Virus record (IMG/VR): IMGVR_UViG_3300008116_000076 | Reading direction: 5' to 3' (one strand) | From: a virus | DNA: 64,000 nucleotides | Shown here: piece after piece, positions 36,130 to 41,266 of the stretch | Numbering within the stretch: position 1 is the stretch's first letter | Layout of the letters: every line of letters starts with the position of its first letter | Notes under the pieces: model-generated | What the model saw: only the letters and a program-made list of their open reading frames with translations | Told to the model about the DNA's origin: nothing | Databases searched by the model: none | Program-made: the position numbers and the translations under genes

Positions 36130-36258
36130 GGGCTGACAAAAACCTATATTTTCTACCCAGAGACAACATGGAATGGCAGTTCTAGTTGGGTTCCTCTGGA
36201 TGCGATATAGGTCCGGTGCATACTAGTTAGATGGGTTCGAATCCCATTCAGTCCACCA
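36130..36258 (+). ncRNA. Mini tmRNA-like / Ala-acceptor tRNA-like RNA
   Basis: GGGCTGA/TCAGTCC-ACCA with G3:U70; T-arm ATGGG-TTCGAAT-CCCAT; no D-arm; long internal helix. Confidence 0.7.
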
Positions 36259-39085: not shown

Positions 39086-39161
39086 GCTGGTATAGCTCAG
39101 ACGGTAGAGCAGTTGCCTTGTAAGCATCAGGTCGAGGGTTCGATTCCTTCTGCCAGCACCA
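39086..39161 (+). tRNA. tRNA-Thr(UGU)
   Basis: Loop CT-TGT-AA, ACCA. Confidence 0.9.
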
Positions 39162-39394: not shown

Positions 39395-39792
39395 GGGATC
39401 AGTTCAGCAACTAACTATGCATTGGAGCAAAAAAGTTGATCCCGTTAATTTTAGGATTGTTTCAGCAAACAATAAAGGTAACAAACTTTCAACTTTGTTA
39501 CGCCGACAAATACAATCCTGTTAGTTTTGGGAAGCATACAGCAAACAATTATACTCGGCCCCTGGGCCAAGGTACGCTCATGGTGAGCATTGTTTCCCGT
39601 TGGTTTTAGGATGACTGCCGCAATTAATCTAGGACTTGTAATCCCGTGGTCGTGGGTGCAAATCCCACCCTCTCCACCATCTATGGGGAGGTAGCTCAGT
39701 AGTAGAGCACGTAAAAGTTCATCCTGTTAGTTTTGGTTTGAGTTCCGCAACTATCAAAAATCATACTTGAAATATGACTCAAAGTTCAAACC
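39395..39792 (+). ncRNA. Array of five stem-closed Y-RNA-like units
   Basis: Units 39395-39443, 39453-39519, 39529-39598, 39608-39725, 39735-39792; covarying terminal stems, C(A/C)GCAA at nt 11-16, GTTRRTTTT linkers. Confidence 0.8.
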
Positions 39793-39810: not shown

Positions 39811-41235
39811 ATGTCTACTTTTGTTAATGCTGTAAAGAATCAGTCTGCTCGTACCGAAAATGGTATGAAGGCTCTAAAGTCAACTGCTAATCCGCTAGTT
39901 GATCTTTACTTCAACATTGGTGCTTCTCGTGGTAAGGATATCATCCCTGCTTTCGTAGCTGCTTATGTTACTAACAAGGATATTGCAACTCGTATTGCTC
40001 TTTGGGCACGTGATGCTCGTGGTGGTTCTGGCGAACGCAAGATCTTCCGTGATATTTTCCAGTATCTATGTGACAACGATCCTGCACTAGCTGCTCGTAT
40101 TGTGCATAAGGTTCCGGAACTTGGCCGTTGGGATGATCTCCTAACTGCAAAGGGCGATGTTCGTAAGTCTGCTTTCGAGTTTATCCGTGAAGGTTTGTCA
40201 AACCAGAACACTGCTGGACTTGTTGCTAAGTGGATGCCTCGTAAGGGCGAAGTGGCTGCAGAGCTACGTGCATTCCTTGGTATGACTCCAAAGCAGTATC
40301 GTAAGACTCTGGTTAACCTAACCAACGTTGTTGAAACTCCAATGTGTGCGAATAAGTGGGATGAGATTGACTTTAATAAGGTTCCTTCTCTTGCTGCTGC
40401 TCGTTACAAGAAGGCGTTCAACAAGCACTCTGTAAAGTTTGCCGAGTATGTTCAGAAGCTCGTAAAGGGCGAGGATGGCGTAAAGGTTAATGCTGGAGCA
40501 GTTTATCCTTACGATGTTCTGAAGGGTGCTGCTAATCATTATTATATGTCGAGCTACGACGCCACTGAACTTGGACATATCCAGGCGCAGTGGGATGCGC
40601 TTCCTAACTATGTTGGTGATGCTAACATTCTACCACTGGTTGATGTTTCTGGGTCAATGACCTGTCCTGCAGGTGGATATGGATCAAAGAGTGGTGTTAC
40701 TTGTCTAGACGTTGCAGTTTCTCTGGGACTGTATCTTGCTGATAAGAACAAGGGTAAGTTCAAGGATACGTTCTTGACTTTCTCTGAAAATCCAGAATTA
40801 CTGCATCTCAAGGGTAACATTATTCAGAAGATTAACCAGATGGTTAGATCTAAGTGGGCAATGGACACTAATCTACACAAGGCTCTGGACAAGATCCTTA
40901 CTGTAGCAAAGGAAGGTAATGTTCCTCAGGAAGAAATGCCTGACATGCTCCTGATTCTTTCTGATATGCAGTTCAATCAGTGCACTCGTCATGATGATTC
41001 TGCTCATGAGATGATCGCTCGTAAGTATCATGCTGCTGGTTATACTATGCCAAAGGTAGTGTTCTGGAACCTTAATGCTGCTTATGGCAATCAGCCAGTT
41101 AAGTATGATACTTCTGGAGTTGCTCTTGTTTCTGGATTCTCTCCTGCACTGGTTAAGGGTCTAGCAAATGTAGAGAACTTCTCTCCAGAAGCAATTATGC
41201 TTGACACTATAATGAATGAGCGTTATAATTACTGA
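39811..41235 (+). CDS. Ro60/TROVE-related DUF2828-type protein with C-terminal vWA domain
   Basis: RTENG, WARDARGGSGER, GRWDDL, AKWMPR, MIDAS DVSGSM, ILSDMQF, VFWNL, VSGFSP. Confidence 0.8.
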   Translation: MSTFVNAVKNQSARTENGMKALKSTANPLVDLYFNIGASRGKDIIPAFVAAYVTNKDIATRIALWARDARGGSGERKIFRDIFQYLCDNDPALAARIVHKVPELGRWDDLLTAKGDVRKSAFEFIREGLSNQNTAGLVAKWMPRKGEVAAELRAFLGMTPKQYRKTLVNLTNVVETPMCANKWDEIDFNKVPSLAAARYKKAFNKHSVKFAEYVQKLVKGEDGVKVNAGAVYPYDVLKGAANHYYMSSYDATELGHIQAQWDALPNYVGDANILPLVDVSGSMTCPAGGYGSKSGVTCLDVAVSLGLYLADKNKGKFKDTFLTFSENPELLHLKGNIIQKINQMVRSKWAMDTNLHKALDKILTVAKEGNVPQEEMPDMLLILSDMQFNQCTRHDDSAHEMIARKYHAAGYTMPKVVFWNLNAAYGNQPVKYDTSGVALVSGFSPALVKGLANVENFSPEAIMLDTIMNERYNY

Positions 41236-41240
41236 ATGAT

Positions 41241-41266
41241 AGGAGGGTACTTCCCCTCCTTTTTTA
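41241..41266 (+). terminator. Rho-independent terminator
   Basis: AGGAGGG...CCCTCCT followed by a T-run. Confidence 0.75.

What the first reader, a model, noticed from the sequence alone, without database searches (positions are those of the whole stretch)
39608..39725. Unit 4 contains a complete circularly permuted tRNA with a Thr anticodon loop and Ala acceptor determinants
Seen, in order: anticodon hairpin GGA-CTTGTAA-TCC (39632-39644), V-loop, T-arm GTGGG-TGCAAAT-CCCAC (39652-39668), 3' acceptor strand CCTCTCC-ACCA (39669-39679), 5-nt linker, 5' acceptor strand GGGGAGG (39685-39691), D-arm GCTC-AGTAGTA-GAGC. The 3' half therefore precedes the 5' half, and the acceptor has G3:U70 and A73. 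Established: YrlA Y RNAs have a T-arm / looped acceptor / D-arm order, and alphaproteobacterial two-piece tmRNA is matured from a permuted precursor. Inference: it is either an uncleaved tRNA-elbow mimic or is cut into an aminoacylatable two-piece RNA.
Basis: partly seen in the sequence, partly recalled or inferred. Interest (0 to 1): 0.8.

Follow-up and report, generated by a model that had tools for sequence, protein, structure and literature searches.

The report
Permuted tRNA inside a phage Y RNA
This 118-base stretch is one of five small RNA genes in front of a phage's Ro60-like gene. It holds a whole tRNA with its gene order rotated, which is the known YrlA-type Y RNA design, but here with a built-in CCA end that suggests the RNA is cut into two pieces.

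Summary
When the two halves are rejoined in normal order, ARAGORN calls a 75-nt tRNA-Thr(UGU). G3:U70, A73 and an encoded CCA are all present.

Unit 4 is the fourth of five tandem stem-bulge "handle" RNAs. They lie between a 23-tRNA island and a gene whose predicted fold matches Ro60/TROVE. Rfam's YrlA is the best family match, at 34 bits and below its threshold. A mycobacteriophage YrlA-like RNA scores about the same and has the same handle.

The permuted T-arm, acceptor, D-arm order is conserved with strong covariation in 16 homologues. All 7 acceptor pairs change on both sides.

A subtype found in 10 distinct sequences, this one included, keeps a 7-bp acceptor, then NCCA, then a linker of 4 to about 80 nt whose 3' end is similar in several members (mostly U at -1). 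Cronobacter phage S13 also carries the same design with free acceptor ends. I therefore favour cutting by RNase P into a two-piece, CCA-ended RNA, as shown for M. smegmatis YrlA. No RNA data could be obtained to test this.

Charging with alanine is unproven. The closest orthologue has A3-U70.

This is a new variant of a known kind. This scan has already noted the same RNA family in other phage genomes.

The parts
39395..39792 (+). Array of five tandem handle RNAs: U1 39395-39443, U2 39453-39519, U3 39529-39598, U4 39608-39725, U5 39735-39792. The spacers between them are 9 nt and U-rich.
   Evidence: Python scan for a 7-bp closing stem plus a C[ACU]GCA bulge. Folds. Such units occur at 2.06 per kb in the 1.2 kb upstream of the gene across loci, against 0.17-0.23 per kb elsewhere.
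39608..39614 (+). U4 closing stem, 5' strand. It pairs with 39719-39725.
   Evidence: 7 of 7 pairs. Stem positions 6-7 take many pair types among 94 units, though that set was selected for perfect pairing.
39615..39622 (+). 8-nt bulge carrying the conserved handle motif. Here it is the CCGCA variant of CAGCA.
   Evidence: C-A-G-C-A is fixed by the search pattern. The flanking U (87%) and the following A (74%) are independently conserved. The same motif occurs in phage LeBron and phage S13.
39623..39625 (+). Short second helix, 5' strand. It pairs with 39716-39718.
   Evidence: Read from the sequence. The same 3-bp pairing is possible in U1 and U5. This is inference.
39632..39644 (+). Anticodon-like hairpin: 3-bp stem and a 7-nt loop with U33, UGU, A37 and A38.
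   Evidence: The same loop sits on different, compensating 3-bp stems in L005, L176, L177 and L015.
39645..39647 (+). 3' strand of the top of the anticodon stem. It pairs with 39709-39711.
   Evidence: Helix 1: all 3 pairs change on both sides, 70.8% paired.
39648..39651 (+). Variable loop.
   Evidence: Position in the re-permuted tRNA.
39652..39668 (+). T-arm: 5 bp plus a 7-nt loop of the UGCAAAU variant.
   Evidence: 100% paired in 16 homologues. The loop variant is shared with 8 of 10 open modules.
39669..39675 (+). Acceptor 3' strand (positions 66-72).
   Evidence: All 7 pairs covary, 93.6% paired.
39676..39679 (+). Discriminator A73 plus an encoded CCA.
   Evidence: NCCA is at this exact place in 10 distinct open modules.
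39680..39684 (+). 5-nt linker. It is the proposed RNase P leader, with U at -1.
   Evidence: Linkers vary from 4 to about 80 nt among homologues. Cleavage itself is inferred.
39685..39691 (+). Acceptor 5' strand (positions 1-7), with G3 at 39687.
39692..39708 (+). U8 and A9, then the D-arm: 4 bp plus a 7-nt loop in which AG replaces the usual GG.
   Evidence: 93.8% paired. This D-loop variant goes with the T-loop variant.
39709..39711 (+). 5' strand of the top of the anticodon stem.
   Evidence: helix 1.
39712..39718 (+). A-rich strand opposite the bulge, then the second helix 3' strand (39716-39718).
   Evidence: An A-rich consensus lies before the 3' stem in 94 units.
39719..39725 (+). U4 closing stem, 3' strand.
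39811..41235 (+). Gene for a 474-aa Ro60-like protein (Pfam DUF2828 plus DUF7788).
   Evidence: Pfam. The AlphaFold model has pLDDT 86.7. The top Foldseek matches are all Ro60/TROVE, E about 1e-7, TM up to 0.63.
41241..41260 (+). Terminator-like hairpin with a T run, closing the unit.

Best explanation
Unit 4 is a Y RNA of the YrlA class, made by a T4-like freshwater phage. It has two modules.

The first is a handle: the 5' and 3' ends pair in a 7-bp stem next to a conserved bulge with the CAGCA-type motif. All five units of the array share this handle. By analogy with Y RNAs, it is the docking site for the Ro60-like ring protein encoded just downstream. This docking is inferred, not shown.

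The second is a complete tRNA body joined through a loop at its acceptor end and opened in the anticodon stem. The gene order is therefore anticodon hairpin, T-arm, acceptor, D-arm. The fold is shown by covariation.

The array has no consensus promoter of its own. It is probably transcribed with the tRNA island and the Ro60-like gene, then cut apart at the U-rich spacers (inferred).

This unit belongs to a subtype with a 7-bp acceptor, an encoded NCCA and a variable linker. I think it most likely that RNase P cuts before G39685 and that the 5-nt tail is trimmed back to CCA. The result would be a two-piece RNA held together by the acceptor stem and the handle, as found for M. smegmatis YrlA (inferred here).

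The tRNA body then gives the Ro60-like particle a tRNA-shaped face. That face could recruit, occupy or divert enzymes that act on tRNAs.
For: Anatomy and the re-permuted tRNA call.

Family and fold:
- YrlA is the best Rfam family, full-length, E 9.6e-6.
- The four helices covary in 16 homologues.
- The neighbouring gene has a Ro60 fold.

Handle and array:
- Handle units are about 10-fold enriched upstream of this gene across 40-odd phage loci.
- Mycobacteriophage LeBron has three such units after its Ro-like gene. The middle one matches YrlA at 39.8 bits.

Published precedent:
- YrlA RNAs lie next to Ro60 genes in 254 bacteria and 22 phages.
- M. smegmatis YrlA has a 7-bp acceptor, is cut by RNase P in vivo and in vitro, and gains CCA (PMC4201824).
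- A Thermus phage Ro60 binds two upstream Y-like RNAs (PMC12135203).

For cutting:
- NCCA lies directly after the 7-bp acceptor in 10 distinct modules. Their linkers range from 4 to about 80 nt and mostly end in U.
- Phage S13 has two RNAs with the same parts but with the chain open at the acceptor and the handle capped by a tetraloop. They stand next to a permuted one.
- Relatives of this phage encode permuted tmRNAs, which need the same kind of maturation.
Against: - No RNA data. No RNA run covered the unit.
- The Rfam score is half the family's threshold, and the published Ro-binding motif GNCGAA is replaced by a different one.
- Binding of the handle to the protein is untested.
- Most homologous modules have a sealed acceptor with a 3-7 nt loop and no CCA, so cutting is not general.
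- A73 can pair with U-1 and close a 9-nt loop. That could hinder RNase P or shift the cut by one base.
- The conserved CCA could instead be a contact for some partner within an uncut loop.
Confidence: 0.6

Rival explanations
1. It is the same Y RNA but stays in one piece. The acceptor is a closed hairpin and the RNA acts only as a tRNA-elbow mimic, like Salmonella YrlA. On this view the CCA is a relic of the tRNA ancestor or a contact site.
For: - Most homologous modules are sealed by 3-7 nt loops without CCA.
- Salmonella YrlA and D. radiodurans Yrn1 were not seen to be cut (PMC4201824).
- The minimum-free-energy fold closes an 8-bp acceptor around a 7-nt loop.
Against: - NCCA is kept at one exact position in 10 sequences whose acceptor stems all differ and whose linkers range from 4 to about 80 nt.
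- A linker of 70-80 nt is hard to see as a loop.
- S13 encodes versions with free acceptor ends.
Confidence: 0.3
2. It is a true permuted tRNA gene. The handle would be a processing signal, the ends in the anticodon stem would be ligated, and the acceptor loop opened, giving an ordinary continuous tRNA as in the red alga Cyanidioschyzon (that comparison is from my own knowledge).
For: All tRNA parts are present and ARAGORN accepts the rejoined sequence. The anticodon loops are canonical, with U33 and a purine at 37.
Against: - The same handle flanks inserts that are not tRNAs (U1, U2, U5).
- It also flanks sealed modules without CCA, and tRNA bodies that lack an acceptor stem altogether.
- The phage already has tRNA-Thr(UGU) at 39086-39161.
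- No ligation signal or ligase was looked for or found.
Confidence: 0.03
3. It is a small two-piece tmRNA-like RNA that is charged with alanine and enters ribosomes.
For: - Rfam's permuted tmRNA model matches 39652-39693 at 27.4 bits.
- G1-G3/U70-C72 plus A73 is the alanine set.
- Phage permuted tmRNAs share the same T-loop variant and a very similar acceptor end.
Against: - ARAGORN calls no tmRNA in the window.
- There is no tag reading frame or pseudoknot within the 118 nt.
- A canonical D-arm and an anticodon hairpin are present, which tmRNA lacks.
- The tmRNA match is far below its threshold of 47 bits.
- The orthologue in L350 has A3-U70.
Confidence: 0.03
4. It is a decayed remnant of recombination between tRNA genes and has no function.
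For: It lies at the edge of a 23-tRNA island. The neighbouring unit U3 has lost its T-arm by a 17-nt deletion relative to sister strains.
Against: - Strong covariation in all four helices.
- The unit is identical in a strain whose U2, U3 and U5 differ.
- The design recurs in phages down to 33% protein identity.
Confidence: 0.02

Closest known systems
YrlA (Rfam RF02553), the tRNA-like Y RNA bound by bacterial Ro60/Rsr; in particular M. smegmatis YrlA (Chen et al. 2014, PMC4201824)
   Same: - It is encoded beside a Ro60-type gene and on the same strand.
- The ends pair in a stem.
- The order is T-arm, looped acceptor, D-arm.
- It is one of several Y-like RNAs made from one precursor.
- The M. 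smegmatis RNA also has a 7-bp acceptor, is cut by RNase P and ends in CCA.
   Different: - The score is 34 bits against a threshold of 69.
- The handle carries a CAGCA-type bulge instead of GNCGAA.
- CCA is encoded rather than added.
- A separate anticodon hairpin with a canonical 7-nt loop is kept.
- There are five units in tandem.
- The protein is the DUF2828/DUF7788 branch, which Pfam's TROVE model does not detect.
Y-like RNAs of mycobacteriophage LeBron (beside gp53, 'Ro-like RNA binding protein')
   Same: - The protein family is the same, at 33% identity.
- It has three tandem units with the same stem plus CAGCAA bulge.
- The middle unit has a permuted tRNA-like module with a similar Rfam YrlA score, 39.8 bits.
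   Different: The LeBron units lie downstream of the gene. Its module has a sealed acceptor with a 3-nt loop, no CCA and no anticodon hairpin.
Handle-bearing tRNAs of Cronobacter phage S13 (annotated there as tRNA-Ser of 121 nt and tRNA-OTHER of 113 nt)
   Same: They have the same parts: acceptor with NCCA, D-arm, T-arm, and a 7-bp stem with the UAUUCAGCA bulge. They stand beside the same gene, and a permuted open unit like U4 follows them.
   Different: The chain is open at the acceptor and closed at the handle by a tetraloop. This is the other circular permutation of the design.
Thermus phage phiLo Ro60 with Yrl1 and Yrl2 (PMC12135203)
   Same: The phage Ro60 has Y-like RNAs encoded just upstream. 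Binding was shown there, and the solved protein is among the best fold matches.
   Different: Those RNAs are described as having a CGAA motif and no tRNA-like module.
Two-piece (permuted) tmRNA
   Same: The 3' acceptor strand with ACCA precedes the 5' strand. The acceptor is of the alanine type. The T-loop variant is the same one seen in phage permuted tmRNAs.
   Different: U4 has no coding part and no pseudoknots. It has a full D-arm and an anticodon hairpin.
Class I RNAs of Dictyostelia (PMC7919456)
   Same: A short stem joins the ends, a conserved motif lies next to the 5' strand, and the rest is variable. Four of that motif's five near-invariant positions (C6, C9, A10, A11) coincide with the handle consensus.
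   Different: Those RNAs are eukaryotic, 42-65 nt long, and have no tRNA module and no known link to Ro60. No Rfam match was seen here. This is a resemblance only.

Membership tests
YrlA-type Y RNA | Encoded within a few kb of a Ro60 orthologue, on the same strand | tested here: met
   The gene starts 86 nt after U4 on the + strand. Its model matches Ro60/TROVE structures best, E about 1e-7. By sequence it is DUF2828/DUF7788, not Pfam TROVE.
YrlA-type Y RNA | tRNA-like domain in the order T-arm, acceptor closed by a loop, D-arm | tested here: met
   91.7% of cells paired, and 17 of 19 pairs change on both sides.
YrlA-type Y RNA | 5' and 3' ends pair in a stem carrying the Ro-binding motif GNCGAA(N)G | tested here: not met
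   The stem is present, but the conserved motif is a C[ACU]GCAA bulge. This is a variant handle.
YrlA-type Y RNA | Reaches the Rfam RF02553 gathering score | tested here: not met
   34.1 bits against 69, E 9.6e-6. The LeBron phage RNA scores 39.8.
YrlA-type Y RNA | Bound by the Ro60 protein | not testable with these tools
   This needs a pull-down or a gel-shift assay.
Two-piece tmRNA | Permuted tRNA-like domain with G3:U70, A73 and CCA | tested here: met
Two-piece tmRNA | Tag reading frame with a resume codon, and pseudoknots | tested here: not met
   ARAGORN calls no tmRNA in the window. The 118 nt are fully taken up by the tRNA parts and the handle.
Two-piece tmRNA | Reaches the Rfam RF04321 gathering score | tested here: not met
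   27.4 bits against 47, and only model positions 36-95 of 213 match.
Permuted tRNA gene (matured to a continuous tRNA) | 3' half upstream of the 5' half, with all tRNA parts present | tested here: met
Permuted tRNA gene (matured to a continuous tRNA) | Flanks form a splicing-type signal used only for tRNAs, and a mature continuous tRNA exists | tested here: inconclusive
   The same flanks enclose non-tRNA inserts and sealed modules, which argues against this reading. The mature RNA could not be observed.
Canonical tRNA | Detected as a tRNA in the native order | tested here: not met
   There is no ARAGORN call and no Rfam tRNA match at 39608-39725.
Dictyostelid Class I RNA | 6-bp terminal stem plus an 11-nt motif with T3, C6, C9, A10 and A11 | tested here: inconclusive
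   C6, C9, A10 and A11 coincide and T3 does not. No model of that family was run.

The most novel reading that the evidence does not exclude
The open subtype, U4 included, is matured into a two-piece RNA with a free CCA end and is charged by a host aminoacyl-tRNA synthetase while docked on the Ro60-like ring. For U4 the amino acid would be alanine, through G1-G3/U70-C72 plus A73. The particle would then display a charged tRNA look-alike with a real anticodon loop. It could act as bait or decoy for host defences that cut or modify tRNAs.
Probability: 0.12. Interest if true: 0.85.

Novelty: new variant of a known kind. Interest (0 to 1): 0.55.

Why it matters
Ro60-like genes of this branch are very common in phages. 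One of them, Bas63 gp130, was reported to counter a bacterial defence, with its RNA partners only guessed at (PMC11482910).

This locus names concrete partner RNAs and shows that they are modular. A shared handle carries interchangeable inserts, many of them tRNA bodies in either circular permutation.

The subtype with an encoded CCA makes an old open question about YrlA directly testable: does the tRNA-like part ever act as a tRNA, with a free and perhaps charged end?

The anticodon-like loops seen in these modules include UGU, UUU and GUU. These are the three tRNA species that the PARIS nuclease AriB cuts (PMC12409363). Other anticodons occur too, so this is only a lead.

Tried and rejected
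- **Whole genome.** None is held for this window.
- **Expression.** Only DNA runs held the stretch. One metatranscriptome contig touched 39757-39830 and none covered U4, so nothing can be said about transcripts or ends.
- **PDB by sequence.** This gave nothing. The Ro60 link needed a fold comparison.
- **Covariance model R1.** It also scores junctions of neighbouring tRNA genes up to about 52 bits, so it cannot be used alone to count modules. It missed modules with long linkers.
- **Pattern scans of viral contigs.** Scans for the T-loop and D-arm variants returned mostly ordinary tRNAs and permuted tmRNAs, with few new modules.
- **Vibrio phage nt-1.** It has only 84 nt upstream of its homologue and no array there.
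- **T4 rnaC and rnaD.** They showed no handle-plus-module design.
- **A discriminator-anticodon rule.** I considered that the discriminator base tracks the anticodon as it would for real tRNA identities: G73 with GUC or GUU, A73 with UGU, GAA or UAG. L350 breaks it (UGA with A73), and several members share ancestry, so I do not rely on it.
- **Recent copy of a resident tRNA.** U4 is not one. Identity to each of the 24 tRNAs is at most 68%.

Full report
**What is there.** The window is part of a T4-like phage. It has RNase H, PhoH, 2OG-oxygenases and a dCMP deaminase, and 23 tRNA genes on the + strand between 33454 and 39351. In order these are:
- a 3-bp hairpin with a 7-nt loop that reads as a tRNA-Thr(UGU) anticodon loop;
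- a short variable loop;
- a T-arm;
- a 7-nt 3' acceptor strand followed by ACCA;
- five linker bases;
- the complementary 5' acceptor strand;
- U8 and A9;
- a D-arm.

The acceptor has G3:U70 and A73. ARAGORN sees no tRNA in the native order. When 39685-39709 is placed before 39630-39679, it calls a 75-nt tRNA-Thr(tgt). The unit is not a recent copy of any of the phage's 24 tRNAs, with identity at most 68%.

**Is it more than chance?** I collected 54 phage loci that encode relatives of the downstream protein, and later more. Sixteen modules with the same T-arm, acceptor, D-arm order were aligned with MAFFT, which knows nothing of structure.
- 91.7% of cells pair on the U4 structure, against 66.8% in shuffles.
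- 17 of 19 pairs change on both sides.
- All seven acceptor pairs covary.
- Sliding the 3' partners by one to three columns drops pairing to 47% or less.

A short helix between 39645-39647 and 39709-39711 also covaries. With the 3-bp hairpin stacked on it, the module has a complete anticodon stem that is split on its 5' strand. That split is where the chain leaves for the handle.

**Context.** U4 is the fourth of five tandem units at 39395-39792. Each unit has the following layout:
- a 7-bp stem made by its two ends;
- an 8-nt bulge on the 5' strand ending in CAGCA or CCGCA, followed by A;
- an A-rich strand opposite the bulge;
- a variable insert;
- a 9-nt U-rich spacer before the next unit.

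The closing stems take many different sequences (60 distinct stem pairs among the 94 units, a set selected for perfect pairing), while the bases flanking the searched bulge motif are conserved. Such units occur at 2.06 per kb in the 1.2 kb upstream of the gene across loci, against 0.17-0.23 per kb elsewhere or on the other strand.

The array has no consensus promoter of its own, and a terminator-like hairpin follows the gene at 41241-41260. Co-transcription with the tRNAs and the gene is therefore likely (inference).

The gene at 39811-41235 is DUF2828 plus DUF7788 by Pfam. A confident model (pLDDT 86.7) matches Ro60/TROVE structures above all others. These include Xenopus Ro60, Deinococcus Rsr and Thermus phage phiLo Ro60.

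**Family.** Rfam's YrlA is the best match to U4: full model, 34.1 bits, E 9.6e-6, but below the threshold of 69.

Mycobacteriophage LeBron encodes a 33%-identical 'Ro-like RNA binding protein'. It has three units with the same stem plus CAGCAA bulge after that gene, and the middle unit matches YrlA at 39.8 bits.

Three published results bear on this:
- Chen et al. reported YrlA next to Ro60 genes in 254 bacteria and 22 phages.
- They also showed that M. smegmatis YrlA has a 7-bp acceptor, is cut by RNase P in vivo and in vitro, and acquires CCA (PMC4201824).
- A Thermus phage Ro60 binds two upstream Y-like RNAs (PMC12135203).

So U4 works like a YrlA and is best filed as a divergent member. 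Two formal criteria are not met, the Rfam score and the GNCGAA motif.

**Closed or cut?** Among distinct permuted modules, most are sealed by 3-7 nt loops without CCA. A second subtype, to which U4 belongs, has a 7-bp acceptor, then NCCA at exactly the tRNA position, then a linker of 4, 5, 5, 5, 6, 7, 7, 8, about 70 or about 80 nt. The ten members are:
- W, with L179 carrying an identical copy;
- L350, L036, L181, L180, L015 and L259;
- L011 and L043;
- S13 unit C.

The base before G+1 is U in seven of the ten. Several linkers end in the same three or four bases. The acceptor stems all differ.

Cronobacter phage S13 adds a telling case. Downstream of its Ro-like gene lie two RNAs annotated as over-long tRNAs. 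They have a normal acceptor with NCCA, a D-arm and a T-arm, but the anticodon loop is replaced by a tetraloop-capped 7-bp stem with the same bulge motif. A U4-like permuted open unit follows them. The same two-dimensional object thus exists with the chain open at either end. This argues that both the handle and a free acceptor end matter.

Relatives of this phage also encode permuted tmRNAs. I therefore favour RNase P cleavage before G39685 and trimming to CCA. This remains inference, because no RNA run covered the unit.

**Identity elements.** G1-G3 with U70-C72 and A73, the alanine set, recurs in W, L015 and L011, while pair 4:69 covaries. That pattern is suggestive.

Against it, the closest orthologue of U4 (L350) has the same 3' strand, ACCA and linker end, but A3-U70 and a loop one base away (UGA). 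Other open modules have G73 or C1:G72. Charging is possible, not supported.

The UGU loop recurs on five different compensating stems. Other modules carry UUU, GUU, GUC, GAA, UAG, UAA, UCU or UGA loops, all with U33 and a purine at 37.

**T-loop and D-loop.** Eight of the ten open modules have a UGCAA-type T-loop together with a D-loop in which AG replaces GG. No sealed module has this variant. One of the eight, L259, was found through a D-arm pattern scan, so that case is selection-biased. The same pair of variants occurs in phage tRNA-Met genes and phage permuted tmRNAs. It therefore looks like a natural alternative elbow contact (inference).

**How it probably works.** The handle docks the Ro60-like ring and the tRNA body is the effector face. 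Published work links Ro60/YrlA operons to damaged tRNAs (PMC7790460, found) and links a Felix O1-type homologue of this protein to defence evasion (PMC11482910). [quoted passage not shown] A role as bait, decoy or repair platform for tRNA-directed attack is the most economical guess. It rests on analogy only.

**Novelty.** The class, its permuted layout, its presence in phages and RNase P cutting of one member are published. The following appear to be new relative to the papers I could read:
- the CAGCA-type handle shared by arrays of units;
- the encoded NCCA-plus-linker subtype;
- the retained anticodon hairpin;
- the coexistence of both circular permutations.

Earlier notes of this scan describe the same handle family beside Ro60-like genes in Felix O1-type and other phages.

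Noticed in passing
window 39529-39598 (U3): U3 holds an acceptor-like hairpin and a D-like hairpin but no T-arm. A 98%-identical strain (L179) and two metagenome runs carry a 17-nt insertion behind 39553 that restores a perfect T-arm. In this window, U3 is therefore a deletion derivative of a permuted module.
   Followed up: partly
L056 4315-4557 (Cronobacter phage S13, NC_028773 132703-132945): Two genes are annotated as tRNA-Ser (121 nt) and tRNA-OTHER (113 nt). They are tRNA bodies whose anticodon loop is replaced by a capped 7-bp stem plus the UAUUCAGCA bulge. They are likely Y-like RNAs, not decoding tRNAs.
   Followed up: partly
L005 2571-2667, L011 889-1001, L015 2037-2126, L036 2131-2223, L023 1453-1554: These handle units have inserts in the normal order (D-arm, anticodon arm, T-arm), with the handle taking the place of the acceptor stem. 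Rfam's tRNA model matches them only over about positions 7-64.
   Followed up: partly
L183 3440-3720 (mycobacteriophage LeBron, after gp53): Three tandem units with the same stem plus CAGCAA bulge lie in an unannotated 360-nt gap. Only the middle one has a tRNA-like module.
   Followed up: partly
L024 5464-5887 and L053 938-1339: ARAGORN calls permuted tmRNA genes with 10-residue tags in phage contigs that also carry the Ro60-like gene. Many further phage permuted tmRNAs turned up in the T-loop pattern scan.
   Followed up: no
L001 about 2755-2800 and L005 about 2680-2725: Consensus sigma-70 promoters (TTGACT, 17 nt, TATAAT) sit inside the arrays of close relatives. The window's array has none.
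   Followed up: no
window 36130-36258: This tRNA-like RNA has a G3:U70 acceptor, ACCA and a T-arm, with a long helix in place of the D and anticodon arms. It has no CAGCA handle.
   Followed up: partly
window 39646-39680: Short 31-41 nt metagenome contigs at very high depth (summed depth up to about 2,200) match the T-arm and acceptor strand at 88-94% identity. They probably come from tRNA or tmRNA ends of abundant bacteria in the same samples.
   Followed up: no
L010, L012, L016, L017, L019, L020, L037 (units upstream of the gene): Other insert types recur across loci within the same handle. One example is a hairpin with a UUUCGA-type loop followed by an AAAAAGUAG stretch. Another is a longer insert of about 170-230 nt that ends with a conserved GACCAGAA stretch. 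They suggest further conserved non-tRNA effector modules.
   Followed up: no
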